The position numbers and the translations under genes were made by a program. The notes beneath the pieces are model-generated. The model was not told the origin of the DNA and searched no databases. It worked only from the letters and a program-made list of their open reading frames with translations. From an uncultured Gemmatimonadaceae bacterium (GTDB taxonomy: Bacteria > Gemmatimonadota > Gemmatimonadetes > Gemmatimonadales > Gemmatimonadaceae): a DNA stretch of 64,000 nt. Location of the stretch: contig CAVUDW010000003.1 in assembly GCA_963740355.1 (NCBI GenBank), forward strand, positions 1,504,001 to 1,568,000, read 5' to 3'. This document shows, piece after piece, positions 10,399 to 63,590 of the stretch (position 1 is its first letter; every line of letters starts with the position of its first letter).

Positions 10399-10583
10399 AC
10401 CGCTGACATTACCCTCGTTTCAGTAACCGGCTAGCCGCGTCGAATCGCGCCCTCTCGGTCCTACACTACCGATCTGTCGTTAACGGCCTTGACGCAAAAC
10501 AGCCTGGGGGTACTGCGACAGCCGCAAAACTGCCACAGCTGCAAAACTGCAACTGCGTTAACGCAGAGTAGCTGTGTTGAAAG

Positions 10584-48203: not shown

Positions 48204-49430
48204 GTGACGACACCAACGCCGCGCCAACTGCTCGAAACGATCTACCACGACGCCATCGCTGCGCTCCAGCCGGAACCAGCCGTCGCATCAGCGCTCGACG
48301 CCGTCTACGGCCCTGGCCACTGGCCCCCATCGATTCACGTGGTCGCGATCGGCAAGGCGTCGCACACCATGGCAGCGGCGGCGTTGGAGTGGTGCGCCGC
48401 GAAGCAGGTGCAGGTGCTCGGCGGGTTGTGCATCGCGCACGTCGCTGGCGGTGCCCCCCTTGGGCCGCTCACCATGCTCACCGGCAATCACCCGATTCCC
48501 GGGCCAGACTCCGCCACCGCAGCCGAGGGTGTCGGGACGTACATCGCAGAGCGTGTGCGTGAGCGCGACGCGGTGCTGGTGCTGCTCTCGGGCGGAACCT
48601 CAGCGCTGATCGGGGCACCGCTCGCCGGTCTATCGCCGGACGAATACGCGTCGACGACGGAGGCACTGATTGGTGGTGGGCTGAGCATCAACGCGATAAA
48701 TCGTGAACGCCGCCGTCTCTCTCGATGGGCACGCGGTCGCCTTGGCGAGGCGCTCCAGGCCCGCGGGGCGACGGTCGAGGTGCTGGTGATCTCCGATGTG
48801 ATCGGCGACGATCTGGCATCGATCGGCAGCGGGCCCTGCATCCCTGATGCAACCAGCGACGCGCCACCGATTCCGCATCGCATCATCAGCAGCAATCGCG
48901 CCGCGCGCGAACTGGTGCTCGCCGCGGCGCAGCGGAACGGCCTGACGCCGGTGCGCGTCGATGAACCGCTGCGCGGCGACGTTGGATACTGTGCCGAACG
49001 GATCGCGCTGGTGCTGCGCACACACGCCATGCACGCGCGCACCGGCTCCCACGCGCACAAGCTGGTGTGCTGGGGCGGCGAACCGACGGTGACCTTGCCC
49101 GGACCGCACGCCCCGCCGGGCGGCCGCATGCAAGCGCTGGCCCTCGCGCTCGCGAAGGAATTGCACAATGCCGGCGCCGATGCCCGCAGCATCACGATCC
49201 TCGCCGCAGGCACGGATGGCCGCGACGGTGCGACCGATGCGGCAGGTGCGGTCGTGGACGGACGAACCTGGTCCGCGATCCGCAGTGTCGGGCGCGCGCC
49301 GGAGCACGATCTGGCGTCGTACCAGAGCCATCAGGCGCTGTCGCTGATCGGCGCGCTGGTTCCGGCCTTCGCGAGTGGCACCAACGTGAATGACCTCGTC
49401 ATCGCGCTGGTCCAGCGCGACGAGGACTAG
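48204..49430 (+). CDS. Glycerate kinase, MOFRL/DUF4147 family
   Basis: IGKAS, HPIP, LSGGTSAL, ISDVIGDD, GGEPTV, GTDGRDG, GTNVND. Confidence 0.92.
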   Translation: MTTPTPRQLLETIYHDAIAALQPEPAVASALDAVYGPGHWPPSIHVVAIGKASHTMAAAALEWCAAKQVQVLGGLCIAHVAGGAPLGPLTMLTGNHPIPGPDSATAAEGVGTYIAERVRERDAVLVLLSGGTSALIGAPLAGLSPDEYASTTEALIGGGLSINAINRERRRLSRWARGRLGEALQARGATVEVLVISDVIGDDLASIGSGPCIPDATSDAPPIPHRIISSNRAARELVLAAAQRNGLTPVRVDEPLRGDVGYCAERIALVLRTHAMHARTGSHAHKLVCWGGEPTVTLPGPHAPPGGRMQALALALAKELHNAGADARSITILAAGTDGRDGATDAAGAVVDGRTWSAIRSVGRAPEHDLASYQSHQALSLIGALVPAFASGTNVNDLVIALVQRDED

Positions 49431-49436
49431 CGGAAG

Positions 49437-50432
49437 CTACGTACCGAGCGCGGCGAGGAATTCTGTCATGTCTTCGATCGCGGAAATGCTGTGCACCTCC
49501 CGGAACACGAGCAGTGCCGCTTCACCACTCGCGCGAGCAGTCCCGAGCTCACGCCGCCTCAACGCAATGTTCGCCTGCATCTGCAGGGCCTGACCCTCCT
49601 GCAGCCGGTGCCCGTGCGTCTGTGCAAGCCGGATCGCCTGCACTAATGCGCCATCGGCACCGAGTGTGTCTCCAAGCTGGTCCGCGGCGTCGGCGAGCAT
49701 CCACCACGCATCTGCCTCGAGGAGGAAGTCGGGCAGCGCGCTGAAAACCTTGATCGCGCGCGTCAGCGTCGCATGCGCCCACGCGGGATCGCCGCGGCGC
49801 AGCGCGATGTCCGCGCGGCCGGCGAGGGCCATCGCTGACAATCGCTCGTCCGGCGCCTCACGTGCGAACTCGATGGCGCGCCGCTCCGCCTCATCCGCTG
49901 CGGTCAGTTCGCCGCGCATCCGATATGCGATGCCGAGATTGTGAGAGCTTTCCGCGAGGCCACGGGCATGCCCGAGCCGCTGGTACGCCGGCATGGCCAG
50001 TTGGTACGCAGCGATCGCGCGGTCTGCGTCACCGTGCAGGGCGGCAATGGCACCGAGGTTGTTGGTTGCCCGCGCCGTGAGTAGCGCGTCGTCGTCCCGC
50101 CGTGACCGCGACAGCGCATCGCCGAAGTGATCGGCGGCGACATCGAGCATGCCGAGCGAGAAAGCCGCAGCGCCCTGCATGTTGATCGCGCGTCGCAACG
50201 CAGGCTGGTCGCCGGAACGATCCAGTAGCGTGGCCGCGCGCGTCAACCATGTCGTGGCGGTCCGAGGATCCCCCGTGCGCAAGCACGCCTCTGCCAGCAG
50301 GATGGCCCGCGCGCCGTCCTGCTCCGTGGCGATGGCGTCCTGTTCCAGGGTTGAACGCACGTCTGCCCACGCCCCGGCAACAGCCGAGACGCGCGCCACG
50401 TTCAACACCGGATCACCGCCGAGAAGCGACAT
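49437..50432 (-). CDS. TPR protein (module copy B)
   Basis: ARATNNLGAIA, AESSHNLGIAY repeats; paralog of 53595-54590. Confidence 0.88.
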   Translation of the reverse strand: MSLLGGDPVLNVARVSAVAGAWADVRSTLEQDAIATEQDGARAILLAEACLRTGDPRTATTWLTRAATLLDRSGDQPALRRAINMQGAAAFSLGMLDVAADHFGDALSRSRRDDDALLTARATNNLGAIAALHGDADRAIAAYQLAMPAYQRLGHARGLAESSHNLGIAYRMRGELTAADEAERRAIEFAREAPDERLSAMALAGRADIALRRGDPAWAHATLTRAIKVFSALPDFLLEADAWWMLADAADQLGDTLGADGALVQAIRLAQTHGHRLQEGQALQMQANIALRRRELGTARASGEAALLVFREVHSISAIEDMTEFLAALGT

Positions 50433-50448
50433 GACTCTTTAGTACGCG

Positions 50449-51084
50449 TTAGTACGCGATGGCGTGCGCGGTGAATGAGAGCAAGTCGGCCTTCACTTCA
50501 CTCAGGTTCCCCGAGATCTCGACCGCGCTGGTCAGCTTGAACCATGGCTGCCCAACGGCTTCCTGCTTCCAGATCGCGAACGACGGCACGAGGTTGGTGT
50601 CGGTCTGGTTGACCGATCCGTCACGATTGAAGTCGGGGTCACAGTTCTTGAAGTCGAGCCGGAGTTCCGCCGGCCGCGAGTCGCTGAACGTGAGCCCACT
50701 CGGCGCAAAGTCCGTGATCAGTTTGGTGAAGTCGCGAACGCGAATCGTGATACGTACCGAATCACCCGCCGCGAAGGCCGAGCCGTCGGGGCGACGAAGC
50801 AACGATTCGTTCCTCACGCGAAAACGCAGGAACCGCACCGAGTCTGTGTTCCCGGGGTTCGGGCGATAGTACATCGCGACCTCACGATCCTGGCCCTTCA
50901 CCGCCCAGAAGCTGACGCTGTCGGTGCGTAGCGCGGTACCCGTCGCGGGCTTGAGAAACCGCAGGCTGGTCTCGGGCGTGCCGCTACCGCCTGGCGTTGG
51001 CGTCGGATTGACCGGGGTGTCACTGGAGCAGGCGATGGCCAGCATCGCCGTCAGGGCGACCGCCGCCCATGTCGTATGTCGCAT
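50449..51084 (-). CDS. Lipoprotein with DxNxDG loop (module copy B)
   Basis: Lipobox LAIAC; DFNRDGSVNQTD; paralog of 54598-55233. Confidence 0.82.
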   Translation of the reverse strand: MRHTTWAAVALTAMLAIACSSDTPVNPTPTPGGSGTPETSLRFLKPATGTALRTDSVSFWAVKGQDREVAMYYRPNPGNTDSVRFLRFRVRNESLLRRPDGSAFAAGDSVRITIRVRDFTKLITDFAPSGLTFSDSRPAELRLDFKNCDPDFNRDGSVNQTDTNLVPSFAIWKQEAVGQPWFKLTSAVEISGNLSEVKADLLSFTAHAIAY

Positions 51085-51085
51085 C

Positions 51086-52459
51086 TCAGAAATCCTCGTT
51101 GAGTTCATCATCGGTCGCGCCAGAAGCCTGCGCATCCAGCAACCGCTGCAACCGCGGTCGGCTGATGCCAAGTCGTCGCGCCGCTTCGCTCTTGTTGCCA
51201 CCGCATCGTTGTAGCATGGCACTGGCCGCACCACGCGCCAGCATCGACAGCGACGCCGGCCATGGCAACTCGCCACCGGCAGCCCCTGCCGCCACCGTGG
51301 CGCCGTCGCCAGCCATGTCCGCAACGTCCATCCGTACCCCATCACAGAGCAGCAGCGCCCGCTCGATGACGTTCCGCAGCTCGCGCACGTTGCCCGGCCA
51401 GGAACGCTCCACCAGCGACCGCTGCGCCGCCGCTGACAACTGCGGCACGGGCATCATGCCATACTCGTGCGCAAACTTGCTCACGAACGCCTGCGCCAAG
51501 CCGACGACATCGTCCGCCCGATCGCGCAGCGGCGGCAGTTCGATCGGCATCACGTTCAGCCGATACCACAGGTCTTCGCGAAATTCCTTGCGCGCCACCG
51601 CTGCCTTCAGCTCGACATGTGTCGCCGCGATCACGCGCACATCGAAGGGAATGGTGCGTGTGCCGCCCACGCGTCGCAGCGTGCGTTCTTCCAGCACCCG
51701 CAACAGCTTGCCCTGCAGGGTCAGCGGCAGGTGGCCGATCTCATCGAGGAACAAGGTGCCGCCGTGCGCCAGCTCGAAGAGCCCAGGCTTCGCCGCGCGG
51801 GCATCGGTGAAGGCGCCCGCTTCGTGACCGAACAACTCACTTTCCAGGAGATTGTCGGGAATGGCGGTGCAGTTCACATCCACGAACGGCTGCTTGCCGC
51901 GTGGTCCGTTGTAGTGGATGGCGCGCGCGAACAACTCCTTGCCGGTTCCCGTCTCGCCAGTGAGCAACACCGTGACATTCGCGTGTGGAATCACCCGTGC
52001 CGCGCGTGTCAGTGCTGCCCGCAAGGCCGGGCTCGAGCCGAGGATTCCGTCAAAGGAGTATTTCATCCCTTCACGTGACGCGAAGGCGGAGCCATCACCC
52101 TGCTCCGCAATGCGCCGCGCCGCATCGTTCACCCAGCTTCGCAAGGCCTCGAGATCGCCTGGCAGCGCGAAGTACTCCTGTGCGCCATGCCGCATGGCAC
52201 TCACCGCCAGCCGATGGTCGGCCACCGACCCGACCACTGCCGTGAACGAGGGCACCGCCACCCGTTCGAGAGCGCTGATCGCATCACGTTCCACGCCGCC
52301 CGCCGCGAGCAGATGTATGGCATCCGGCGTTGCCGACCACGCAGCGAGCCCCTCGCTGGTGGAGGGATGTGCCTGCAGCGACGCGCCGGATGCCGTGGCC
52401 AGTTCCGGCCACAGCATCTCGAACGAATCCGACCAGCCAAGGAGTGCGAGCGTCGTCAC
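51086..52459 (-). CDS. Sigma54-dependent activator with degenerate receiver domain (copy B)
   Basis: GETGTGKE, GAFTDA, LFLDEI, WPGNVREL, Fis-type HTH. Confidence 0.95.
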   Translation of the reverse strand: MTTLALLGWSDSFEMLWPELATASGASLQAHPSTSEGLAAWSATPDAIHLLAAGGVERDAISALERVAVPSFTAVVGSVADHRLAVSAMRHGAQEYFALPGDLEALRSWVNDAARRIAEQGDGSAFASREGMKYSFDGILGSSPALRAALTRAARVIPHANVTVLLTGETGTGKELFARAIHYNGPRGKQPFVDVNCTAIPDNLLESELFGHEAGAFTDARAAKPGLFELAHGGTLFLDEIGHLPLTLQGKLLRVLEERTLRRVGGTRTIPFDVRVIAATHVELKAAVARKEFREDLWYRLNVMPIELPPLRDRADDVVGLAQAFVSKFAHEYGMMPVPQLSAAAQRSLVERSWPGNVRELRNVIERALLLCDGVRMDVADMAGDGATVAAGAAGGELPWPASLSMLARGAASAMLQRCGGNKSEAARRLGISRPRLQRLLDAQASGATDDELNEDF

Positions 52460-52524
52460 CAGTATCGATGGCGCTCGTACCGCGCGCCGAGAGAGGAGTC
52501 ATGTCACGGCACCGGCGCAATCGC

Positions 52525-53370
52525 TCAGCCGTGGCCGCTGCCTTCGTGTCCACGGCTCGATCCGCGACCACTGTCTTCATGGCCATCGCGATCCCGATCG
52601 CCGAAGGCGCGGAAGGACGTCATGATATTCTGGTCGATCGCGGCCTGATTTGCGACCGTCGGGGCCAACAAGGCACCACCAGCGCTCTTGAACCAGGAAG
52701 ACAGATCGAGTGCGATCGAGACATTGTCGTTCACGCCCGACTGCACCACGAGTGAGGGCTCGAACTCGAACTCCACCTCGGCGCGCGCCTTGCTCAGGAA
52801 CGTGAACGCGGTGCCCTTGTAGGTACCGCTCACCTTCACGGTGACGTCGCGAAACTCCGGGTGTGCGGCCAGAAAGTCCTTGTCGGCCTGTGGGGCGTTG
52901 GCGCTCGTGCTGACGTCGTCGATCTCGAACTCGAATTCATGATAGGTGCCCGCAGGCACGGTCACGGCCAGAGGCGACGTGCTGGCACCGCTCAGCGGTA
53001 GATCGAGCAGCATTGGGCCGAGATCGAGCCGCGAGCAGCCGCCCTTGTCCGAACTGCGACCACGCGTGCTACTGACCGTCATCGAGTCTGGGCACGCCGT
53101 CACCCCTTCGCGACGCAGCTTCACGTTGCCCAGCACCAGCTGCACCTTGTTGATCACCATCGTGTCGGAGGACGTGCCGACGATGATGGCATTGCCGGCG
53201 GCGTTGGTCGCCGCGGTGCCGGTGGCGGCAAACGAGACAGACAACGCGGTGGCACCGGCGGACCCGGCGTCGGTGGTCGCGGTCGCGCCATCGCCACAGG
53301 CGGCGAGGGTGCACAGCAACGTGAGAGGCAGCACCCCAAGAGGGCGCGGTGGGAGCAGGCGTGTGATCAT
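52525..53370 (-). CDS. Lipoprotein of unknown function (copy B, first gene)
   Basis: Lipobox LAAC; paired Cys; C-terminal DRDRDG; paralog of 56684-57508. Confidence 0.82.
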   Translation of the reverse strand: MITRLLPPRPLGVLPLTLLCTLAACGDGATATTDAGSAGATALSVSFAATGTAATNAAGNAIIVGTSSDTMVINKVQLVLGNVKLRREGVTACPDSMTVSSTRGRSSDKGGCSRLDLGPMLLDLPLSGASTSPLAVTVPAGTYHEFEFEIDDVSTSANAPQADKDFLAAHPEFRDVTVKVSGTYKGTAFTFLSKARAEVEFEFEPSLVVQSGVNDNVSIALDLSSWFKSAGGALLAPTVANQAAIDQNIMTSFRAFGDRDRDGHEDSGRGSSRGHEGSGHG

Positions 53371-53423
53371 CAGAATCTCCTGAAGAGGGGCGAACTGTCG
53401 GATGGTTCTCGAGGCTGAAGTGG

Positions 53424-53438
53424 GCATGACACGCGCCA
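53424..53438 (-). promoter_or_regulatory. Sigma54 -24/-12 promoter (copy B)
   Basis: Minus strand TGGCGCGTGTCATGC (GG-N10-GC). Confidence 0.75.
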
Positions 53439-53478
53439 TGCCGCCGTTCGCCGGTTGACCATCACAACCCTCTCAGGG

Positions 53479-53490
53479 ACAACGACTTAC
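53479..53490. promoter_or_regulatory. IHF-like site (copy B)
   Basis: ACAACGACTTAC (CAA-N4-TTA), same offset from the promoter as in copy A. Confidence 0.55.
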
Positions 53491-53543
53491 AAGATTCGCC
53501 CGAGGGCGCAGTGGGGCCGCATCGCGCTCGTGGCGTTCCACCC

Positions 53544-53560
53544 TGTATCGTGGCGATGCA
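53544..53560. promoter_or_regulatory. Palindromic upstream activator site (copy B)
   Basis: TGTATCG-TGG-CGATGCA, 106 bp from the -24 box end. Confidence 0.65.
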
Positions 53561-53594
53561 GCGACAGTGACTGCACGGCCCTCCGCCCTGTCGG

Positions 53595-54590
53595 CTACCG
53601 AGGCAGGCTCGCGATGAATGCAGCCATGTCATTCACGGAGGCCTGGCTGCCGACACGGCTGAACGCGTCGAGCGCATCCGAACCGATTCGTGCGGCTGCC
53701 GTCACGTCGCCGCGTCGCAACATGATGTGGGCGTGCGTCTGAAGGATCTGCGCCTCTTGCAAGAGATGCCCGTGATCACGCGCAAGCTGATACGCTTTCT
53801 CCAGCAGGGTGTCGGCCACGACGGGAATGCGGAGCCGGTCGCTGGCATCAGCCTGCACCCGCACCGCGTCTGCCTGCAGCAGGAAATCAGGCACGGTGCT
53901 GAACAGGGTGGCGGCACGCGATGCGTTGGCGCGCGCCCACAGGAAATCGCCACGGAGCAGCGAAATCTCCGCGCGCCCGACCTGTGCCATCGCAACCAGG
54001 CGCAGGTTGCCGGACTCGTTGGCGTACTCGCTCGCACGACGCTCCGCTTCGTCCGCGTCGTCGAGCTTTCCAAGCGAGCGATACGAGATCCCGAGGTTGT
54101 GCCAACTCTCAGCCAGCCCAAGTGTGTGGCCGAGCCGCTGATAGGCCGGAATGGCGAGTTGGTATGCCGCGATGGCCCCGGCCGTATTGCCGCGAAGCGC
54201 CTCGATGGCGCCAAGGTTGTTGATCGCGCGCGCGGTAAGCAATCCATCGCCATCTACGCGTGCCATGTCCAGCGCGGTCCCGAAACTCTCCGCCGCCGCG
54301 TCGAGCCGACCGAGGGAAAACGCTGCGGCTCCCTGCATGTTGATCGCGCGTCGCTCGGCGGGGCGATCTCCGACGCGCGACAGCAGCCCCGTCGCCGTGT
54401 CGAGCCACCGCCGCGCCGTACGCGCATCGCCCGTGCGAAGGTACGCCTCCGCCAGCAGGAGCGCGCTCGCCCCGTCGCGCCCTGCGACCTCGTCGGCGCC
54501 TGCGAGCTTGTCGCGCACCACACCCCACGCGCCGATACCGGCGGCGGCGCGAGCGGACGACAGCACAGAATCGACGGGTGGTCCTGACAT
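53595..54590 (-). CDS. TPR protein (module copy A)
   Basis: ARAINNLGAIE, AESWHNLGISY repeats. Confidence 0.88.
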   Translation of the reverse strand: MSGPPVDSVLSSARAAAGIGAWGVVRDKLAGADEVAGRDGASALLLAEAYLRTGDARTARRWLDTATGLLSRVGDRPAERRAINMQGAAAFSLGRLDAAAESFGTALDMARVDGDGLLTARAINNLGAIEALRGNTAGAIAAYQLAIPAYQRLGHTLGLAESWHNLGISYRSLGKLDDADEAERRASEYANESGNLRLVAMAQVGRAEISLLRGDFLWARANASRAATLFSTVPDFLLQADAVRVQADASDRLRIPVVADTLLEKAYQLARDHGHLLQEAQILQTHAHIMLRRGDVTAAARIGSDALDAFSRVGSQASVNDMAAFIASLPR

Positions 54591-54597
54591 GATCGCG

Positions 54598-55233
54598 CTA
54601 GTAGGCGATCGCGTGGTTCGTGAACGACAGGATCTGCGCCTCGATCTCCCGCAGATCACCTGAAACTTCGGCGCGGCTCGAGAGTTTGACCCACGGCTGC
54701 CCCGCAAATTCCTGCTTCCAGATGGCGAAGTCCGCGATGCGCAGTGAATCGGCTTGCGTCACGGCGCCATCTCGGTTGTAGTCCTCGTCGCAGTTCTTGA
54801 AGTCGAGCCGCAACTCGGCCGGCTCGGCGGGATTGAACACCAAGCCACTCGGCAAGTACTCCGTGATCACGCGTGCGCTATCGCGCACCTTGATCGTGAT
54901 CCGAATGGAATCGCCGAACACGAATGGCGTCCCATCGGGACGGCGCAAGAGCGCGGCGCCGCCAACCTTGAAGCGCAGGAAGCGTACCGAGTCGCTCTTG
55001 CCCGCAGCGGGGCGGAAGTAGAGCGAGACCTCTCGATCCTTGCCACGGACTGCCCAGAAACTGACGCTGTCCTTGCTCAGGACGGCGCCAGGCGCAAAGC
55101 GGAGAAAGGAAAGTTGAGTTTCGGGACGCGTCGGCGATTCCAGACTCGGATCCACCGGAGCGCCATCGCTGGACGCACAGCCGAGCAGCAACAGCGCTGC
55201 CACCGTGCAAAGAAACTTTCGCTGGTCAAACAT
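54598..55233 (-). CDS. Lipoprotein with DxNxDG loop (copy A)
   Basis: Lipobox LLGC; DYNRDGAVTQAD; ends SFTNHAIAY. Confidence 0.82.
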   Translation of the reverse strand: MFDQRKFLCTVAALLLLGCASSDGAPVDPSLESPTRPETQLSFLRFAPGAVLSKDSVSFWAVRGKDREVSLYFRPAAGKSDSVRFLRFKVGGAALLRRPDGTPFVFGDSIRITIKVRDSARVITEYLPSGLVFNPAEPAELRLDFKNCDEDYNRDGAVTQADSLRIADFAIWKQEFAGQPWVKLSSRAEVSGDLREIEAQILSFTNHAIAY

Positions 55234-55234
55234 T

Positions 55235-56617
55235 TCAGTACTCCTCACGGGAATCGTCGTTCGTTGCACCATCAACAGGCGCATCCACGAGTCGCTGCAG
55301 GCGCTGCCGACTGATGCCCAGTCGCCGCGCCGCCTCGCTCTTGTTTCCATTGCAACGCTCGATCATGGCCAGCCCTGCACTGCGCACCAGCACACCCAGT
55401 GTGGACGGCCAGTCCAATTCGCCCGCTTCCACGGCGCTGCGCTTCACGGCCAGGCGCGCGTCGTCAATCGCCACGTCCCCGGCCTCGATTACATCGCCAT
55501 TTGACACCAGCATCGCGCGCTCGATCACGTTACGGACCTCGCGCACGTTCCCGGGCCAGGTGCGCGAAGTCAGCGCGTGGATGGCCCCCTCGGACAACGT
55601 TGGTACCGGGGAGATGCCGTACTCCTTCGCAAATCGACGCACGAACGCACTCGCCAGCTCGATCACGTCCTCCATTCGCTCGCGCAGCGGCGGAAGGACG
55701 ATGGGCATTACGTTCAAGCGATACCACAAGTCTTCACGGAACTCGCCGCGCGCCACCGCGCTATGCAAGTCGACATGCGTGGCAGCAATGATCCGCACGT
55801 CGAAGCCGATGCTTCGTGTGCCGCCCACGCGCCGCAGCGTACGCTCTTCCAGCACACGCAAAAGCTTGCCCTGCAAGACGAGTGGGAGGTGCCCGATTTC
55901 GTCCAGAAACAGTGTGCCGCCGTCGGCCAGCTCGAAGAGACCTGGCTTGGCCGTGCGGGCATCGGTGAATGCACCGGCCTCATGGCCGAACAGTTCACTC
56001 TCGAGCAGCGTCTCCGGAATCGCAGTGCAATTCACCTCGACGAACGGTTGGGTGGCGCGTGGCCCATTGTAGTGAATGGCACGCGCGAATAGCTCCTTGC
56101 CCGTACCCGTTTCCCCGGTCAGCAGTACGGTGACATTCTGCCGCGGAATCACGCGACTGGCGACGGCCATCACGTTCCGCAACGCCGCACTCGAGCCGAG
56201 GATGCCGTCGAAGGTGTACTTGCGCCCTTCTCGCGCAGCAAACGCCGAGCCGGCGAGCGCCTCGGACTGCTGACGCGCGGCGTCATCGATCCAGCTCCGC
56301 AGGGGCTCGAGGTCGCCAGGCAGCGCAAAATACTCCTTCGCTCCCGAGCGCAGCGCACGCACCGCCACGCGATAGTCGATCGTACCGCCAACCATTGCGG
56401 CAGTGCCGAGCGACGTCTGCCGGCCCACCGAGGCGATTGCCTCCATTTCCACACCACCCGCGGCGTGCACTGTGATCGTATCCCGCCTCGCCGCATGCAA
56501 TTCCAGCAGCTCCGGCGACGCCTGCGCCATCTCGAGCGACAGGCCAGACGCTGTGGCCAATTCGGGCCACAGCGCCTCAAACGAGTTTGACCACTGAAAG
56601 ACAACGAGCGATGTCAC
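55235..56617 (-). CDS. Sigma54-dependent activator with degenerate receiver domain (copy A)
   Basis: GETGTGKE, GAFTDA, LFLDEI, WPGNVREV, HTH; GTG start chosen by alignment to copy B. Confidence 0.95.
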   Translation of the reverse strand: MTSLVVFQWSNSFEALWPELATASGLSLEMAQASPELLELHAARRDTITVHAAGGVEMEAIASVGRQTSLGTAAMVGGTIDYRVAVRALRSGAKEYFALPGDLEPLRSWIDDAARQQSEALAGSAFAAREGRKYTFDGILGSSAALRNVMAVASRVIPRQNVTVLLTGETGTGKELFARAIHYNGPRATQPFVEVNCTAIPETLLESELFGHEAGAFTDARTAKPGLFELADGGTLFLDEIGHLPLVLQGKLLRVLEERTLRRVGGTRSIGFDVRIIAATHVDLHSAVARGEFREDLWYRLNVMPIVLPPLRERMEDVIELASAFVRRFAKEYGISPVPTLSEGAIHALTSRTWPGNVREVRNVIERAMLVSNGDVIEAGDVAIDDARLAVKRSAVEAGELDWPSTLGVLVRSAGLAMIERCNGNKSEAARRLGISRQRLQRLVDAPVDGATNDDSREEY

Positions 56618-56683
56618 GTGATGGCTGAACGTCTGACGGTTGCACCGGGTGCAGCGCGAGATCGCGGCACCCGGTGCACGCAA

Positions 56684-57508
56684 TCAAGGCTGTCCCTGTC
56701 GGCTACGCTCGCGACCGCGACCTGAGTCTTCCTTTCCGTCGCGGTTCCGATCGCCGAAGGCATCGAAAGATGTCACGATGTTCTGCTCGATGCGTGATTG
56801 GTTCTCAACCGTCGGTGCGAGCAATCCGCCGGTCTCGCCCCGGAACCAGCGGCCGAGATCGAGCGACACCGTGATGTTGTCGTTGACACCTGCCTCGACC
56901 AACAGCGCAGGCTCAAACTCGAACTCCACTTCCGCCTCGACGTGACTGACGAAGGTGAACGGCACGCCACGATACGTCCCCGTGACGCGAACCGTCACGT
57001 CACGGAACTCGGGGTGCTGCGCCACGAACAGGCTCTCGGCAGCCGACGCACTGCTCCCGGTGCGCACTTTGTCGAGCTCGAACTCGATCTCACGATACGA
57101 TCCTGCGGGGATCGCGACTGCCAGCTTCGACGCGCCAGTGCTGTCGAGCGGCACGTCGAGCAGCATGGGGCCGAGATCGAGGCGAGAGCAGCCGCGTTCA
57201 TCGGAGCTCCGCTCACGATTGGGGCTGACGGGAATGCTGTCCGGGCACGCCGCGACGTCCGCGCGGCGGAGTTCAACGTTGCCCAGAACCAGTTGGACGG
57301 TGGAGATCTTCAGCGTATCACCCGCAGCGCCGACCAGGATTGACTGTCCTGCCGCGTTGGTCGCCAGCGCACCCGTGCTGGCAAATGAGACAGAGAGACT
57401 GGTGGCACCACCACCAGAAGCGAGCGGATCCGTGCCGCACGCTGCCAGGGTTGAGAGGAGCGTGACCGGCATCCAGACGCGGCGTCGCGAGAGGGAGCGG
57501 ATGTTCAT
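56684..57508 (-). CDS. Lipoprotein of unknown function (copy A, first gene)
   Basis: Lipobox LAAC; GCSRLDLGPMLLD shared with copy B; DRNRDG. Confidence 0.82.
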   Translation of the reverse strand: MNIRSLSRRRVWMPVTLLSTLAACGTDPLASGGGATSLSVSFASTGALATNAAGQSILVGAAGDTLKISTVQLVLGNVELRRADVAACPDSIPVSPNRERSSDERGCSRLDLGPMLLDVPLDSTGASKLAVAIPAGSYREIEFELDKVRTGSSASAAESLFVAQHPEFRDVTVRVTGTYRGVPFTFVSHVEAEVEFEFEPALLVEAGVNDNITVSLDLGRWFRGETGGLLAPTVENQSRIEQNIVTSFDAFGDRNRDGKEDSGRGRERSRQGQP

Positions 57509-57567
57509 TTGAAAGCCTCGACAGTAGAAGTTTGCCGACACCAGATTCGATGTCACTGTAGAGCTAG

Positions 57568-57582
57568 GCAACTGAAATGCCA
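57568..57582 (-). promoter_or_regulatory. Sigma54 -24/-12 promoter (copy A)
   Basis: Minus strand TGGCATTTCAGTTGC, near consensus TGGCAC-N5-TTGC. Confidence 0.85.
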
Positions 57583-57605
57583 CGGCAATTCGACTCGAGG
57601 CCAGC

Positions 57606-57634
57606 AATCAAGTCGTTGCGCCACAACGTTTTAC
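57606..57634. promoter_or_regulatory. IHF-like site(s) (copy A)
   Basis: AATCAAGTCGTTG is an exact WATCAANNNNTTR match; ACAACGTTTTAC follows. Confidence 0.65.
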
Positions 57635-57687
57635 GCGAATGCGACGCTCGCCGGCCATTGCCTGAGGTTGTTGCGAAATCATACGGC

Positions 57688-57704
57688 TGTACCATTTTGG
57701 TACA
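57688..57704. promoter_or_regulatory. Palindromic upstream activator site (copy A)
   Basis: Perfect TGTACCA-TTT-TGGTACA, NtrC-box-like, 106 bp from the -24 box end. Confidence 0.75.
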
Positions 57705-57890
57705 ACCGCATTGGATCGGCCGGTTTCGGCAAGCACTCGAAAACAGTCGCGCCACTCCCCGTTCGCGCGTCACCGATCTCTCGTCCAGAGCCCCCGATCT
57801 CAGGGATGCCCGAGACCGGGTGGAGGGCGCGGATGACGTACATTTCCGCCGCGCGAGCCCGCGCCTCCTCCTGACCGACTTCCAGAGATC

Positions 57891-58820
57891 ATGACCGCTT
57901 CGTCCACGTTCACGGTGGGCCTCGTCCAGATGGCCGTCACCGGCGACCGTGCCACCACGGTGACCGCCGCGATCGAGAAGATCCGCGAGGCGGCCGCCCG
58001 TGGCGCACAGATCATCTCCCTGCAGGAGCTGTTCAACGCTCCGTACTTCTGCAAATCCCTGAAGCTGGAACGCTTCGACATCGCGGAGCCCATTCCCGGG
58101 CCGACCGTCGAACTGTTGCAGGGCGTCGCGCAGGAACTCGGCGTGGTGCTGGTGGTGCCGATCTACGAGAAGCAGGCACCGGGTCTGTACAAGAACTCCG
58201 CCGCCGTCATCGACGCCGACGGTGCGCTGCTTGGCACGTATCGCAAGATGCACATCCCGCACGACCCGATGTTCGAGGAGAAGTACTACTTCACCCCCGG
58301 CGACGTCGGCCCCGATCTGCGCACGGATAAGCATCCGGGCGTGAATGGGTTCCGCGTCTGGCAAACGAAATTTGCGAAGATCGGTGTGCTCATCTGCTGG
58401 GATCAGTGGTATCCGGAAGCCGCTCGCATCACCGCCATGCTCGGTGCCGAGGTGTTGTTCTATCCCACCGCGATCGGTTGGCACCCCGCCGAGAAGGCGA
58501 CGTTCGGTGCGGCGCAGGTCGATGCGTGGCGCACGGCACAGCGGGCGCACGCGATCGCGAACGGTGTGTTCGTGGCGGCCGCCAATCGTGTCGGATTCGA
58601 GCCCGAGCCCGGCACGGATGGCCTCGAGTTCTTCGGCAACTCGTTCATCTGCGATCCCATCGGTCGCTACCTGACGCAGGCGGGCACCGATCCCGAAGTG
58701 CTCATCGCGACCTGTGATCGTGCCCTGATCGAGGACACCCGTCGCAACTGGCCGTTCCTTCGTGATCGCCGCATCGATGCCTACGCACCCATCACCCAGC
58801 GGTGGCTCGGTGGCGCCTGA
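57891..58820 (+). CDS. aguB: N-carbamoylputrescine amidase (carbon-nitrogen hydrolase)
   Basis: LQELF, YRKMHIPHDP, ICWDQWYPE; adjacent to agmatine deiminase. Confidence 0.88.
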   Translation: MTASSTFTVGLVQMAVTGDRATTVTAAIEKIREAAARGAQIISLQELFNAPYFCKSLKLERFDIAEPIPGPTVELLQGVAQELGVVLVVPIYEKQAPGLYKNSAAVIDADGALLGTYRKMHIPHDPMFEEKYYFTPGDVGPDLRTDKHPGVNGFRVWQTKFAKIGVLICWDQWYPEAARITAMLGAEVLFYPTAIGWHPAEKATFGAAQVDAWRTAQRAHAIANGVFVAAANRVGFEPEPGTDGLEFFGNSFICDPIGRYLTQAGTDPEVLIATCDRALIEDTRRNWPFLRDRRIDAYAPITQRWLGGA

Positions 58821-58830
58821 TCACGGACGG

Positions 58831-59913
58831 ATGCCACACGTGACACCGCTCACGTCGCCCACACGTCGCATGCCGGCGGAATGGGAGCAGCACGCGGCGA
58901 CCTGGCTGGCGTGGCCGGTGCACGAACCCGACTGGCCCGGCAAGTTCGCGCCGATCCCCTGGGTGTATGCGGAGATCGTCCGTGTGCTGGCGCAATACGA
59001 GCGAGTGGATGTGCTCTGCAACGACGCGCATGTCCGAGAACAGGCGCGCGAGATGCTGGCCGCACATTCCGTCAATCTCGACAATGTGCGACTCCATGTC
59101 GCACGCACCGATCGCGTCTGGGTTCGCGATTCGGGGCCCACCGGTGTGCACCGACCCGACGGTTCGGTGGAGCTGGTGCAATGGGGCTTCAACGCGTGGG
59201 CGAAATACGAGAACTATCTGCACGACACGCAGGTGCCGGAGCATGTGGCAGAGTTCACCGGCCTGCCGATCACGCGGGCACAGCGCGCCGATGGCAACGG
59301 GGCGCTCGTCCTCGAGGGTGGTGGCATCGAGGTGAACGGCCGCGGGCGCATTCTCGTCACCGAGGAATGGCTGCTGACGGACCTCCAGGTACGCAATCCT
59401 GGGTTCGGGCGCGCCGACTACGAGCGTGCGTTTGCGGAATGGCTTGGCTGTCCCGAAACGATCTGGCTCGGTGAAGGCTGCGTTGGAGACGACACACACG
59501 GCCACGTTGACGACATTGCGCGCTTCACCAGCGGCGACACCGTGCTGCTGGCCGTCGAGCGCGATCCAATGGACGACGAAAACCATCGCCGATCCATCGA
59601 CAACCTGCATCGCTTGCAGCGGGTGGGCGGCGCTGCGGGGCCGCTCCGGGTGATCGAGCTGCCATACCCGCGAGCGGTGATGATGGACGGCGTGCGCTTG
59701 CCAGCGAGTTACGCAAATTTCTACGTCGCCAACGGCGTGGTGATCGTTCCGACGTTCAACGATCCGAACGATCGCGTGGCCATGAACATCATCGCCGACT
59801 GCTTCCCGGGTCGCGCCATCGTCGGCATTCACGCCGTCGACCTGGTGTGGGGTCTGGGCACACTGCACTGCCTCACACAGCAGCAACCAGCGGCGCGCAA
59901 CTCGCACCGCTGA
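58831..59913 (+). CDS. aguA: Agmatine deiminase
   Basis: MPAEWE, WVRDSGP, LEGGG, DTHGHVD, SYANFY, GTLHCLTQQ. Confidence 0.93.
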   Translation: MPHVTPLTSPTRRMPAEWEQHAATWLAWPVHEPDWPGKFAPIPWVYAEIVRVLAQYERVDVLCNDAHVREQAREMLAAHSVNLDNVRLHVARTDRVWVRDSGPTGVHRPDGSVELVQWGFNAWAKYENYLHDTQVPEHVAEFTGLPITRAQRADGNGALVLEGGGIEVNGRGRILVTEEWLLTDLQVRNPGFGRADYERAFAEWLGCPETIWLGEGCVGDDTHGHVDDIARFTSGDTVLLAVERDPMDDENHRRSIDNLHRLQRVGGAAGPLRVIELPYPRAVMMDGVRLPASYANFYVANGVVIVPTFNDPNDRVAMNIIADCFPGRAIVGIHAVDLVWGLGTLHCLTQQQPAARNSHR

Positions 59914-61701: not shown

Positions 61702-63590
61702 CCGAGACAGTGCAGCAGGTCTTCACCGCGAAGACGATCGGCGGACGGCTCCTGCGCGCATTCCTGGTGCTCGCGGTGTTGCTCTCCGGCGCAGGTGTCC
61801 TGGCCTACAACTCGCTTCATTCATCGGCCGCCACAGCCACCGATGCGCTGGAAGTGATCCGTCGCGACGCCCGACTGTCATCGTCATTGTCGGCCACTGT
61901 GGCCGAGGAAATTCAAGCGGCGAGTCACTACCTGCGCGATGGTGACGCTGCCGCGCTGGAGACGTTCCGGCGCCTGATGTTCGAGACTCATCGCATCACG
62001 CGTGCCATGAATCGCCAGGCGACGCGCGAGTCGGATCACATCGCGCTGGTGGCACAGGTGGACCGTGCGCTGTCGAGTGTCGAGGTCACTTACGCCCGCG
62101 CGCACCGGCACCTCGAGATGGGCGACACAGTCGCCGCACGCCGCGAAGAAGCTGCCGTCTCACCGGCGGTGCGCCAGTTGCTCGGCGGAATCGACCGACT
62201 TGGTTCACTGACGGAACGACAGGTCACGCTGGTTGCTGCAGAGATGCGCAGCGAGGCAGAGACGCGCGCCCTCGCGGTGCTGCTGGTGTTCGGCGGTGTG
62301 TTGATCGTTGGCACGTTGCTCGTCGGCGCCACGCTCCGCTCTATCAACGAGCCGTTGCACCAGCTGGTGGAACATGCCGATGCGCTCAGTCGTGGTGCCT
62401 TTGAAGCGCGTACCAGCGGTCGCATGCCCGGCGAGTTCGAGAAGATCGCGGCCGCGCTCAATGAGGCGGGCGCCTCGCTCGGCATCCTGCACACCGCCAC
62501 CGCGGCCACCGCCTCGGAGCTGGCAGGTTCGTCAAGCGAGCTGTCGCAGGTCAGCGATCGAATTGCGCACAAGGCAACCGAGGTCTCGCACGTGATGGAA
62601 AATGTCACGCGCGGCGCCGAGAACCAGGTTGGCATGCTGAAGAAGATCGACGCCGAGTTGGCCGCGAACGGTGAACGTGCGCTCGAGGTCCGTCAGGAGG
62701 CCGGTTCTGTTGCGGCACTCGCCGAGTCGATCGAGCGGGAGGCGATGGAGAAGCGCCAGACGATCGGGCAGGCGATGGCGGTGATGCTGGAGATCCGCAC
62801 GTCGGTGCAAACGGCCAGTCGCACGGCGGAATCGCTGCACGGCGTCACCGAAGGCATCGCGCAGTTCGTGACGTCGGTGGGCCGCATTGCCGAGCAGACC
62901 AACATGCTGGCCCTCAACGCCGCGATCGAGGCCGCACGTGCCGGCGATGCTGGGCGCGGGTTCGTGGTGGTGGCTGATGAGGTACGCAAGCTGGCCGAAG
63001 CCGCGCAGCGCGCAGCCGATGATGTCGCACGCCTCACCAACGCGATCACGGGACGCGTCAACGAGACCGTCAGCACCATGCAGCGCAGCGCTGGGCTGGT
63101 GGGTGAGATCGAGACCGTCGGTCGTGACGTGGGGACAGCACTCGAGAGCATCACTGCGTCGGCGGAACGGACGGTGGCGGCGGCCGCCAACCTGAGCCAG
63201 ATCGCCGCGCTCAACTCGACGCAGATGGCAAGCGTCCAGCAGTCACTGGGCGTCGTGGCAGCGGATGCCGTCGGCCATGCCACCAGCGCGCAGAAGGCCA
63301 ACGCGTCGGCGCAGGAACAGAGCGCTGCCTGTCAGCAGATGAGCGCGGCATCGCAGGTCCTGCATGGCCGCAGCAACCGGCTGCGTGCCCTGGTCGAGTC
63401 GCGCGGCGCCGTGAATACCACGCCTGGGCACACCGCAGAATTCATGACGACGAAGAAGCTCGAAGTGATGTCGTCTCCGCGGGAGGGTGGTACACCCACA
63501 CGCGTGACAGCGGTCACGCCGCTCAACAACCGCGTGTTGAACCGTGCACCGCAGACCAAGCAAGGGCCACCGGGCAAGCGGCACGCCTGA
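61698..63590 (+). CDS. Methyl-accepting chemotaxis protein
   Basis: Two TMs, [42 protein letters not shown]. Confidence 0.95.

What the first reader, a model, noticed from the sequence alone, without database searches (positions are those of the whole stretch)
49437..57704. Tandemly duplicated four-gene sigma54 signalling module (lipoprotein, pseudo-receiver activator, lipoprotein, TPR) with no kinase
Seen: two complete, diverged copies with identical gene order. In each, the activator, second lipoprotein and TPR gene are tightly packed, and each copy has its own sigma54 promoter. No histidine kinase occurs in the window. Established: sigma54 activators are controlled by phosphorylation, ligand binding or partner proteins. 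Inference: a self-contained envelope-to-transcription circuit in which two lipoproteins are outputs or sensors and a cytoplasmic TPR protein (no signal peptide or TM seen) controls the activator. I do not recognise this architecture as a described system; it is the best candidate for novelty in the window.
Basis: partly seen in the sequence, partly recalled or inferred. Interest (0 to 1): 0.88.

Follow-up and report, generated by a model that had tools for sequence, protein, structure and literature searches.

The report
Kinase-less sigma-54 lipoprotein module, duplicated
Two diverged tandem copies of a four-gene cassette, conserved across Gemmatimonadota, pair a sigma-54 activator that cannot be phosphorylated with a cytoplasmic TPR protein and two lipoproteins, and appear to form an undescribed self-activating signalling circuit.

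Summary
On the minus strand lie two copies of lipoprotein A, sigma-54 activator E, lipoprotein B and TPR protein T, 52-66% identical between copies. Each copy is preceded by a GG-N10-GC promoter and, 122 nt further upstream, a 17-bp palindrome. No HATPase_c domain lies in the window.

The module is conserved. In 301 sampled genomes of the phylum, B occurs in 89 and E's special N-domain in 88, with almost the same spread over families. In 76 fetched loci, T accompanies E in 68 of 69 and B in 60 of 61. A carries the sigma-54 promoter: 21 of 24 A genes against about 2 expected.

E's N-domain is receiver-like, but Asp, Thr/Ser and Lys are replaced. B folds like a ZU5 domain and has an [H/S/G]-F-[S/T/C] self-cleavage-type motif seven residues from its end. 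A is MbnP/DUF4382-like. T-family TPRs are also fused to HD-GYP-type domains.

My best reading is an autoregulated E-T regulatory pair that drives envelope lipoproteins. T-to-E control is inferred, not shown. I found no published description.

The parts
57688..57704 (-). Upstream palindrome of copy 2, TGTACCAAAATGGTACA (candidate binding site for E)
   Evidence: 10 of 10 on the palindrome score. It starts 122 nt upstream of the -24 element; sequence read. Similar palindromes lie 92-125 nt upstream of the promoter in relatives.
57567..57582 (-). Sigma-54-type promoter of copy 2, TGGCATTTCAGTTGCC (GG-N10-GC)
   Evidence: It begins 74 nt upstream of the A2 start. A site at the same position occurs in 21 of 24 A genes examined.
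56684..57508 (-). A2: lipoprotein of the MbnP/DUF4382-like family, 274 aa
   Evidence: Lipobox LAAC. 62% identical to A1. Family alignment.
55235..56617 (-). E2: sigma-54 enhancer-binding protein with pseudo-receiver N-domain, 460 aa (GTG start by homology)
   Evidence: Pfam Sigma54_activat 8.6e-69, AAA_lid_14, HTH_8. N-domain profile match 5.1e-37.
54598..55233 (-). B2: ZU5-like lipoprotein, 211 aa, tail SFTNHAIAY
   Evidence: Start is 1 nt after the E2 stop.
53595..54590 (-). T2: cytoplasmic TPR protein, 331 aa
   Evidence: Pfam TPR_12 3.9e-19. 58% identical to T1. Start is 7 nt after the B2 stop.
53544..53560 (-). Upstream palindrome of copy 1, TGCATCGCCACGATACA
   Evidence: 9 of 10 on the palindrome score. 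It starts 122 nt upstream of the -24 element; sequence read.
53423..53438 (-). Sigma-54-type promoter of copy 1, TGGCGCGTGTCATGCC
   Evidence: It begins 68 nt upstream of the A1 start.
52525..53370 (-). A1: lipoprotein of the MbnP/DUF4382-like family, 281 aa
   Evidence: Model pLDDT 77.9. MbnP 7l6g_A Z 8.5, rmsd 4.5, 180 residues aligned. Sub-threshold Pfam DUF4382 and MbnP matches in family members.
51086..52459 (-). E1: sigma-54 enhancer-binding protein with pseudo-receiver N-domain, 457 aa
   Evidence: Pfam. PDB matches to bEBP AAA+ cores. N-domain profile matches receiver domains. Ala52, Gly77 and Leu99 stand where Asp, Thr/Ser and Lys are expected.
50449..51084 (-). B1: ZU5-like lipoprotein, 211 aa, tail SFTAHAIAY
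   Evidence: Model pLDDT 89.4. Ankyrin ZU5 3ud1_A Z 9.8, rmsd 2.9, 119 residues aligned. Start is 1 nt after the E1 stop.
49437..50432 (-). T1: cytoplasmic TPR protein, 331 aa
   Evidence: Pfam TPR_12 7.1e-19. The profile's closest solved sequences are peptide-binding TPR proteins (LGN/Pins, kinesin light chain) and the AfsR TPR region.

Best explanation
Each copy is a self-contained, kinase-less sigma-54 circuit.

Shown or strongly indicated by sequence:
- E is an NtrC-family AAA+ activator whose receiver-like N-domain has lost the phospho-acceptor Asp and the conserved Thr/Ser and Lys.
- A sigma-54 promoter lies 50-95 nt in front of lipoprotein gene A, with a TGyAnC-N5-GnTrCA palindrome about 100-125 nt further upstream.
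- In this window A, E, B and T follow each other on one strand behind that promoter.

Inferred:
- E binds the palindrome and activates A. Read-through then raises E, B and T, which gives positive autoregulation.
- Input does not come from phosphorylation. It comes through T, the cytoplasmic TPR protein that accompanies E in nearly every related locus.
- I think T most likely acts as an anti-activator on E's pseudo-receiver or linker, giving negative feedback as PspA, FleN or HrpV do, and is released when its TPR groove binds a ligand or peptide.
- A (MbnP/DUF4382-like) and B (ZU5-like) are exported lipoproteins and are the circuit's envelope outputs. B may also feed back (see the section on the most novel reading).

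The tandem duplication copied the whole unit, including promoter and palindrome, within this genus' lineage.
For: Module conservation:
- B is present in 89 of 301 sampled genomes and E's N-domain (E<=1e-15) in 88 of 301. The family counts are nearly identical: f1 10 vs 9 of 69, f2 71 vs 71 of 125, f4 1/6, f5 1/1, f6 2/23, f8 3/4, f7 0/47.
- Of 40 loci that I picked among the stronger B hits (39 genomes), all 40 have E and T beside B.
- Of 20 loci from weaker B hits, 20 have T and 13 have E.
- Of 16 loci picked from E N-domain hits with no B hit nearby, 15 have T next to E and 13 are A-A-E-T.
- Overall T is with E in 68 of 69 loci. The exception is cut by a contig end.

Promoter:
- A site with >=8 of 11 matches lies 48-95 nt upstream of 21 of 24 A genes, against 0.088 expected per region. 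Twelve of 24 score >=9, against 0.013 expected.
- The same test gives E 5/42, B 11/46 and T 2/45.
- In a second set, all 11 A genes of L041-046 and 11 of 13 first A genes of A-A-E-T loci have a site. None of the 13 second A genes does.

Palindrome:
- 16 of 21 promoters in the set the motif was derived from have a match.
- 10 of 22 promoters in the independent set have a match, against about 0.03 expected per region.
- In A-less operons the palindrome plus a weaker GG-N10-GC site lie in front of E.

Pseudo-receiver:
- The N-domain profile finds 98 PDB sequences at E<=10. The best are receiver domains (LuxO 4.8e-5, response regulator 8svz 5e-5).
- 0 of 38 members have Asp at columns 50-56. Position 99 is L/M/V/I in 38 of 38. 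Position 77 is Gly in 35 of 38.
- In the window's own genome, only these two of 10 strong bEBPs carry this N-domain.

Other:
- rpoN is present and no HATPase_c lies in the window.
- T has a signalling role elsewhere: T-family TPRs are fused to HD_5/HD domains in 4 loci, and a GGDEF gene follows T-T in one.
- Duplication: E1, E2 and the same-genus homologue form a 100/100 clade, with E2 sister to that homologue.
Against: - No direct evidence that T touches E.
- The palindrome motif was derived post hoc. Only 10 of 22 promoters in the test set match it.
- The window's copy-1 promoter is weak (8 of 11, ATGC at -12).
- E carries GAFTDA rather than GAFTGA in 26 of 38 members. I did not check what this does to sigma-54 contact.
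- B-T(-T) loci without E and without recognisable sigma-54 sites exist, so T and B also work outside sigma-54 control.
- No expression data: no RNA run holds the stretch.
- The direction of T's effect (inhibitor or co-activator) is a guess.
Confidence: 0.5

Rival explanations
1. Peptide signalling. B is exported and cleaves itself at the conserved F|[S/T/C] bond. Its C-terminal heptapeptide is released, re-imported through an Opp-type transporter and bound by the cytoplasmic TPR protein T. T then switches E, or a fused HD-GYP domain. This is an RRNPP-like or tethered-agonist-like logic in a diderm.
For: - B model matches ZU5 (Z 9.8, rmsd 2.9, 119 aligned), GAIN (Z 5-7.5) and FIIND (Z 5.5) domains.
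- A neighbouring Atlas cluster carries PF00791 ZU5 on 51% of its members.
- F-[S/T] lies within the last 12 residues in 157 of 162 homologues, exactly 7 residues from the end in 140 of those 157.
- Divergent paralogues read HFS or HFC. That gives the Ser/Thr/Cys nucleophile set and the HFS/SFS motif described for PIDD, Nup98 and CARD8 (PMC3210808, passages read).
- B and T are adjacent in 60 of 61 loci.
- An SBP_bac_5 gene flanks the module in 13 of 40 loci, 12 of them within 500 nt.
- T's closest solved sequences are peptide-binding TPRs.
Against: - 13 A-A-E-T loci have E and T but no B, so B cannot be the general input.
- The tail is a buried beta-strand of the fold, so its conservation may be purely structural.
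- No RRNPP protein is among the 60 PDB matches shown for T.
- Pfam ZU5 matches none of the 42 B members, even at E<=10.
- The window has no SBP_bac_5 gene beside the module.
- Cleavage is untested.
Confidence: 0.12
2. Export-stress feedback. T senses unexported precursors of lipoproteins A and B in the cytoplasm, for example through their signal peptides. It is titrated away from E when lipoprotein export or maturation is impaired. This resembles the Psp system or a secretion-chaperone co-activator.
For: - T always sits beside a lipoprotein gene (B or A) and/or E.
- T is cytoplasmic while A and B are exported, so the only shared compartment is the one before export.
- E, B and T are translationally coupled, with gaps of 1-16 nt.
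Against: - There is no evidence of binding.
- The signal peptides of A and B are ordinary and poorly conserved.
- It does not explain the conserved ZU5-type tail or the HD-GYP fusions.
Confidence: 0.15
3. E is controlled by an unlinked kinase or a small ligand acting directly on its N-domain. T, A and B are merely co-expressed envelope or assembly proteins with no regulatory role.
For: - The N-domain keeps the receiver fold signature and a conserved face (F13, G55, E57, G92 invariant).
- The genome has 77 HATPase_c matches elsewhere.
Against: - The acceptor Asp and the conserved Lys are missing in all 38 members.
- T travels with E in 68 of 69 loci, even where gene order and the lipoprotein content change.
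- T-family TPRs are fused to signalling output domains.
Confidence: 0.1

Closest known systems
Partner-controlled sigma-54 activators (PspF-PspA, FleQ-FleN, HrpRS-HrpV, FlbD-FliX; mostly recalled. For FleQ-FleN I saw only the search listing and abstract start of PMC8528422)
   Same: An AAA+ sigma-54 activator without phosphorylation input. Its activity is set by a dedicated co-encoded protein. The regulon concerns the cell envelope. The partner is encoded in the regulated operon, which suggests autoregulation.
   Different: The partner here is a 330-aa all-TPR protein of an uncharacterised family. E keeps a full-length receiver-like domain with Asp, Thr/Ser and Lys replaced. The outputs are two uncharacterised lipoprotein families. 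No interaction has been shown.
NtrC/NtrC1/DctD-type response-regulator bEBPs
   Same: Receiver-like domain, helical linker, AAA+ domain and Fis-type HTH. A palindromic upstream site of NtrC type lies about 120 bp from a GG-N10-GC promoter.
   Different: No acceptor Asp, no conserved Lys and no linked kinase. All NCBIfam equivalog scores are far below their cut-offs; the best is TIGR02915, 332 bits against a cut-off of 502.6.
ZU5 / FIIND / GAIN / Nup98 autoproteolytic domains (PMC3210808 and PMC3482391, passages read)
   Same: Beta-sandwich fold (Z 9.8 to ankyrin ZU5, 8.2 to UNC5b, 5-7.5 to GAIN domains). An [H/S]-F-[S/T] motif sits in the turn before the last strand. The model's alignment to UNC5b ends at residue 684 and B1's at 211, so F204 would fall on UNC5b Leu677, the residue that paper equates with the cleavage-site Phe. 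The inner register of the alignment was not shown.
   Different: B is a 190-aa bacterial lipoprotein that ends exactly with the post-site strand, so there is no UPA, death or 7TM part. It has an extra dockerin/EF-hand-like D-x-D-x-D-G loop (159 of 162). Pfam ZU5 does not match it. It lacks the C-terminal CxH motif that PMC3482391 names for the superfamily. Cleavage is untested.
RRNPP peptide receptors (Rap-Phr, PlcR-PapR; recalled. For RapF-ComA I saw only the listing and abstract start of PMC3246441)
   Same: A cytoplasmic TPR protein is encoded next to an exported protein whose C-terminal end could be a peptide signal. Rap proteins act on response-regulator domains. An Opp-type binding protein is a frequent neighbour (13 of 40 loci).
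   Different: The phylum is diderm. The 'pro-peptide' would be a folded 211-aa lipoprotein. T has no HTH or phosphatase part. No RRNPP protein appears among the solved sequences shown for T. Modules without B exist.
MbnP / DUF4382 periplasmic proteins (for A)
   Same: Two-sandwich fold: 7l6g_A Z 8.5, rmsd 4.5, 180 aligned, with the next hit at Z 5.7. Weak Pfam matches: DUF4382 in 9 of 24 members (best 7.7e-5) and MbnP in 6 of 24 (best 0.0011). Lipoprotein or periplasmic location.
   Different: All Pfam matches are below threshold, and the window's own A1 has none. There is no recurrent MbnH-like neighbour among the families seen in 4 or more of 40 loci. A has its own conserved Cys pair around an acidic insert and a C-terminal D-x-D-H-D-G motif.
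PEP-CTERM PrsK/PrsR/PrsT system (NCBIfam TIGR02915; PMC1569441 seen only in search listings)
   Same: A sigma-54 activator encoded with a TPR protein, with envelope-directed outputs. TIGR02915 is E1's best NCBIfam hit.
   Different: The score is below the cut-off (332 against 502.6). There is no PrsK kinase. As I recall it, PrsT is a large TPR lipoprotein, whereas T is small and cytoplasmic. I did not look for PEP-CTERM proteins or an exosortase.

Membership tests
Sigma-54 enhancer-binding protein (NtrC family) | Sigma54_activat AAA+ domain with Walker motifs | tested here: met
   PF00158 at 2.1e-68 (E1) and 8.6e-69 (E2) across the full profile. PDB matches to NifA, ZraR, FleQ and NtrC1 cores at 1e-74 to 1e-66.
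Sigma-54 enhancer-binding protein (NtrC family) | GAFTGA loop that contacts sigma-54 | tested here: inconclusive
   G, A, F, T and the final A are invariant, but the fifth residue is D in 26, G in 11 and N in 1 of 38 members. Both window copies read GAFTDA. The effect on function is unknown.
Sigma-54 enhancer-binding protein (NtrC family) | C-terminal Fis-type HTH, sigma-54 in the genome and GG-N10-GC target promoters | tested here: met
   HTH_8 at 3.2e-9 and 2e-7. One Sigma54_DBD match at 1.1e-62. Promoter sites before 21 of 24 A genes.
Two-component response regulator | Phospho-acceptor Asp at the end of beta-3 | tested here: not met
   The aligned position is Ala in the profile alignment to response regulator 8svz. 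0 of 38 members have Asp in columns 50-56.
Two-component response regulator | Conserved Thr/Ser (beta-4) and Lys (beta-5) | tested here: not met
   Gly77 in 35 of 38 members. Position 99 is L/M/V/I in 38 of 38 (YFALP where receivers have a Lys-Pro).
Two-component response regulator | Cognate histidine kinase encoded nearby | tested here: not met
   None of 77 HATPase_c matches lies in the window. No kinase family recurs among the neighbours of 40 loci.
ZU5 superfamily (for B) | ZU5-type beta-sandwich fold | tested here: met
   Model pLDDT 89.4. VIA-align: Z 9.8, rmsd 2.9, 119 aligned to 3ud1_A; Z 9.6 to 3f59_A; Z 8.2 to 3g5b_A. Foldseek E 2e-3 with probability about 1.0.
ZU5 superfamily (for B) | Sequence match to Pfam PF00791 | tested here: not met
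   ZU5 does not appear among the families matched by any of the 42 members at E<=10. Only a neighbouring Atlas cluster carries it, on 51% of its members.
ZU5 superfamily (for B) | Autoproteolysis at the [H/S]-F-|-[S/T/C] bond | not testable with these tools
   The motif is present in 157 of 162 homologues and reads HFS or HFC in divergent paralogues. Cleavage itself needs protein chemistry.
MbnP / DUF4382 (for A) | Fold and family profile match | tested here: inconclusive
   Z 8.5 to 7l6g_A. Only sub-threshold Pfam matches: DUF4382 in 9 of 24 members, MbnP in 6 of 24, and none for A1.
RRNPP quorum-sensing receptors (for T) | TPR receptor fused to an HTH or phosphatase effector part, next to a short pro-peptide gene | tested here: not met
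   T is TPR only. Its neighbour B is a folded 211-aa lipoprotein. No RRNPP protein is in the 60 PDB rows shown, out of 124 matches.
PEP-CTERM PrsR regulator | Score above the TIGR02915 cut-off and a linked PrsK kinase | tested here: not met
   332.3 and 330.3 bits against a cut-off of 502.6. No kinase in the window.

The most novel reading that the evidence does not exclude
B is a bacterial lipoprotein that is self-cleaving in the ZU5/GAIN manner. Its last seven residues, the strand after the conserved [H/S/G]-F-|-[S/T/C] bond, would be a releasable peptide signal. That peptide is read in the cytoplasm by the TPR protein T, which switches interchangeable outputs: the pseudo-receiver sigma-54 activator here, and HD-GYP or GGDEF enzymes in related loci. 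This would be a peptide-based envelope-to-cytoplasm signalling system in a diderm phylum. It would combine the logic of adhesion-GPCR tethered agonists with that of Gram-positive RRNPP receptors, and it would need no membrane-spanning sensor in the module.
Probability: 0.12. Interest if true: 0.9.

Novelty: new variant of a known kind. Interest (0 to 1): 0.62.

Why it matters
Sigma-54 activators are normally switched by phosphorylation, by a ligand-binding domain or by a few well-studied partner proteins.

Here an entire phylum-wide family of activators has given up phosphorylation. It always travels with one family of cytoplasmic TPR proteins, and members of that family are also wired to c-di-GMP enzymes. 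That points to a modular, unstudied input device in Gemmatimonadota, a widespread soil and sediment phylum that is hardly tractable genetically.

The regulatory DNA (promoter and palindrome) is readable, so the circuit can be rebuilt and tested in a heterologous rpoN+ host.

The B lipoprotein brings a ZU5/GAIN-type self-cleavage motif into a small bacterial envelope protein. If it is active, it would be a simple model for that chemistry and could explain how an envelope event reaches a cytoplasmic regulator.

The tandem duplicate in this window offers a natural pair for studying insulation or cross-talk between two nearly identical circuits.

Tried and rejected
- Complex prediction of E's N-domain with T (alignments A7 and A6): score 0.00 in both runs and controls not run, so no verdict.
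I therefore did not test spread outside the phylum. The Atlas lists only Gemmatimonadota as the commonest phylum for B clusters.
- RNA evidence: no RNA holder is listed for the stretch. No reads were laid.
- Selenocysteine or read-through idea for the '1 TGA/TAG inside' flags on many A hits: rejected. For L032 and L033 the hit coordinates run 15 and 33 nt past the ORF's stop, so the alignment simply extends beyond the C-terminus.
- Window-wide sigma-54 pattern count is not enriched: 93 matches against 85.7 expected.
- Sigma-70 promoter and terminator scan of 49200-57950: 0 promoters and 2 intragenic terminator-like sites, fewer than in shuffles.
- Sigma-54 sites before the neighbouring SBP_bac_5 genes: 3 weak sites in 13 genes, with no consistent position.
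- Sigma-54 and palindrome sites before B in the 15 B genes of the weak-hit set that I scanned (7 in E-less loci, 8 in loci with E): only scattered sites, the best being L056.
- Longer homologues of T: only generic TPR_12 proteins of STAND, SARP or CHAT type at E 1e-14 or weaker. The HD-GYP fusions were found through the loci instead.
- Pfam and NCBIfam on A and B at default thresholds: no match.
- Foldseek against the PDB for both models gave no hit at E<=0.001. The VIA-align searches gave the usable matches.
- Literature: four full-text searches listed no paper describing a bEBP-TPR-lipoprotein module in Gemmatimonadota. Subscription journals are not covered by this library.

Full report
**1. 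What is in the window**

Eight minus-strand genes form two tandem units in the same order. The upstream unit is A2 56684-57508, E2 55235-56617, B2 54598-55233 and T2 53595-54590. The downstream unit is A1 52525-53370, E1 51086-52459, B1 50449-51084 and T1 49437-50432.

The copies are 62% (A), 66% (E), 52% (B) and 58% (T) identical. E, B and T are packed with gaps of 1 to 16 nt. A and E are 65-66 nt apart.

Pfam names E (Sigma54_activat, AAA_lid_14, HTH_8) and T (TPR_12 and relatives). A and B match nothing at default thresholds. A and B each start with a signal peptide ending in a lipobox cysteine. T has no signal peptide or hydrophobic stretch.

The flanking genes are metabolic: DUF4147/MOFRL, CN_hydrolase and PAD_porph. 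None of the genome's 77 HATPase_c matches lies in the window. One rpoN is present. The genome holds no further copy of the module.

**2. Is it more than chance?**

Source names and Atlas taxa place the family in Gemmatimonadota.

In an even sample of 301 genomes of the phylum:
- B was found in 89 and A in 122.
- E's N-domain profile (E<=1e-15) was found in 88.
- B and the N-domain have almost the same distribution over families: f1 10 vs 9 of 69, f2 71 vs 71 of 125, f7 0 of 47.

I fetched 76 loci in three sets.
- **Set 1:** 40 loci that I chose among the stronger B hits, from 39 genomes. All 40 have E and T next to B. Thirty-six are ordered E-B-T and 4 are B-E-T. A is present in 21 of them, in varying position and orientation.
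- **Set 2:** 20 loci from weaker or second B hits. All 20 have T after B, and 13 have E. The other 7 are B followed by a fused double T of about 670 aa.
- **Set 3:** 16 loci chosen from N-domain hits with no B hit nearby. Thirteen are A-A-E-T without B, two have only E and T, and one is cut by a contig end.

So T is the constant member. It is with E in 68 of 69 loci and with B in 60 of 61. These sets were picked by me from hit lists and related genomes are not independent, so the fractions describe the sample and are not a statistical test.

**3. Regulatory DNA**

I scored sites against the sigma-54 consensus, requiring the GG and GC dinucleotides.
- Twenty-one of 24 A genes have a site with >=8 of 11 matches, 48-95 nt upstream of the start codon. 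The expectation is 0.088 per region.
- Twelve of 24 reach >=9, against 0.013 expected.
- E (5/42) and T (2/45) are near background. B (11/46) is modestly enriched, mostly where a gap separates it from E.
- In the later loci, all 11 A genes of L041-046 and 11 of 13 first A genes of the A-A-E-T loci have a site. None of the 13 second A genes does.

The window sites are 57582-57567 (9 of 11) and 53438-53423 (8 of 11).

About 100-125 nt upstream of these promoters lies a 17-bp palindrome, TGyAnC-N5-GnTrCA.
- I derived it from the first set, where 16 of 21 promoters match. That count is post hoc.
- In the independent second set, 10 of 22 promoters match within 75-145 nt, against about 0.03 expected per region.
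- In the window both palindromes start exactly 122 nt upstream of the -24 element: 57704-57688 (10 of 10) and 53560-53544 (9 of 10).
- In A-less operons, the palindrome and a weaker GG-N10-GC site stand in front of E.

This is the standard geometry of an enhancer-dependent promoter. It places A, and here by read-through E, B and T, under E's own control. That last step is inference.

**4. The proteins**

*E.* The AAA+ core matches solved bEBPs at 1e-74 to 1e-66. A profile of its first 128 residues finds receiver domains in the PDB, the best being 4.8e-5 (LuxO) and 5e-5 (response regulator 8svz). In those alignments the acceptor Asp is Ala, the Thr/Ser is Gly and the Lys is Leu. Across 38 members there is no Asp in columns 50-56 and no Lys at position 99. 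Within the genome, only these two of ten strong bEBPs carry this N-domain. The sigma-54 contact loop reads GAFTDA in 26 of 38 members.

*T.* It consists of about eight TPR motifs. Its closest solved sequences are LGN/Pins, kinesin light chain and the AfsR TPR region. T-family TPRs are fused to HD_5/HD domains in four loci, and a GGDEF gene follows T-T in one. The family therefore feeds several signalling outputs.

*B.* The model is confident (pLDDT 89.4) and ZU5-like: Z 9.8, rmsd 2.9, 119 aligned to ankyrin ZU5; Z 8.2 to UNC5b; Z 5-7.5 to GAIN domains; Z 5.5 to FIIND. A nearby Atlas cluster carries Pfam ZU5 on 51% of its members, although Pfam ZU5 itself matches none of 42 members.
- F204 is one of seven invariant columns.
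- F-[S/T] lies within the last 12 residues in 157 of 162 homologues, and 7 residues from the end in 140 of those 157. The residue before F is S, G or H.
- Divergent paralogues read HFS or HFC.
- PMC3210808 (passages read) describes exactly such SF|S and HF|S sites at the end of ZU5-like domains: a buried Phe, a Ser/Thr/Cys nucleophile and a following strand.
- PMC3482391 (passages read) predicts autoproteolytic ZU5 domains in bacterial surface proteins.
- B also has a dockerin/EF-hand-like D-x-D-x-D-G loop in 159 of 162 homologues.

*A.* The model (pLDDT 77.9) resembles MbnP: Z 8.5, rmsd 4.5, 180 aligned, with the next hit at Z 5.7. Family members give weak DUF4382 and MbnP Pfam matches. A has a conserved Cys pair around an acidic insert and a C-terminal D-x-D-H-D-G motif.

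**5. Mechanism**

My best-supported reading, at confidence 0.5, is a kinase-less, positively autoregulated sigma-54 circuit. E binds the palindrome and fires the promoter in front of A. T, E's obligate genomic companion, supplies the input by protein-protein contact with the pseudo-receiver. I think T most likely acts as an anti-activator that gives negative feedback.

- Shown: the domain content, the missing phosphorylation residues, the conserved promoter and palindrome, and the co-occurrence.
- Inferred: E binding the palindrome, read-through into E, B and T, any T-E contact and its sign, and the signal. The one complex prediction gave no verdict.

Rival readings:
- **Peptide signal from B's tail (0.12).** It is attractive because of the HFS-type motif, the B-T adjacency and an SBP_bac_5 neighbour in 13 of 40 loci. 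It is weakened by the 13 modules that lack B.
- **Feedback from unexported lipoprotein precursors (0.15).**
- **Control by an unlinked kinase or a direct ligand, with T as a bystander (0.10).**

**6. Duplication**

In a maximum-likelihood tree of 38 E proteins, E1, E2 and the same-genus homologue form a 100/100 clade, and E2 is sister to that homologue (100/100). The whole unit, regulatory DNA included, was therefore duplicated before those two species split. The sampled relative shows only the copy-2 type.

In one search, three pairs of B homologues list the same longest-contig length. One pair has source locus tags 15550 and 15570, consistent with tandem copies in other relatives. I did not check this.

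**7. Comparison and novelty**

The module works like partner-controlled bEBP systems (Psp, FleQ-FleN, HrpRS-HrpV, FlbD-FliX; recalled). It is not a member of any curated equivalog, since every NCBIfam score is below its cut-off. It fails the defining tests of a two-component response regulator.

Four full-text searches found no description. The library omits most subscription journals.

Two earlier notes of this scan, on other genomes, describe the same kind of cassette. I read them after reaching my own reading (note). They agree with it but are not independent evidence.

I rate the finding a new variant of a known kind, with interest 0.62.

Noticed in passing
window 51800-51817 (E1) and 55958-55975 (E2): The sigma-54 contact loop reads GAFTDA instead of the canonical GAFTGA. 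Across the family the fifth residue is D in 26, G in 11 and N in 1 of 38 members.
   Followed up: partly
L048:15703-17358, L049:10910-12718, L052:7112-8734, L060:9593-11575: T-family TPR domains are fused to HD_5/HD (HD-GYP-type) domains inside B/T gene clusters. In L058 a GGDEF gene (9643-10455) follows the double T.
   Followed up: partly
L061-L070, L074-L076: A variant module, A-A-E-T, has no B gene. Its sigma-54 promoter sits only before the first A.
   Followed up: partly
L047 (G112:C75), L049, L040: There are local expansions of B, with up to six tandem B genes, several T genes and two E genes in about 11 kb. Their tails read HFSG[YF]A[VI]A[WY].
   Followed up: no
13 of L001-L040 (e.g. 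L027:9894-11663, L024:1209-2864): An SBP_bac_5 (Opp/Dpp-type solute-binding protein) gene flanks the module, in 12 cases within 500 nt and often divergent from A. No consistent sigma-54 site precedes it.
   Followed up: partly
window 61993-62007, minus strand: Another close match to the sigma-54 consensus, TGGCACGCGTGATGC (1 mismatch), lies outside the module. I did not examine what it precedes.
   Followed up: no
own genome G000:C3:446513-447130: A remote third paralogue of lipoprotein A (30% identity, E 1e-5) lies far from the module.
   Followed up: no
L012:8380-9505: In one relative the E gene is split into three overlapping reading-frame pieces. This is a likely frameshift or an assembly error.
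   Followed up: no
window 57891-59913: Directly upstream of the module, on the other strand, lie a CN_hydrolase gene and a PAD_porph (agmatine deiminase-type) gene whose reading frames overlap. This looks like a polyamine pathway pair.
   Followed up: no
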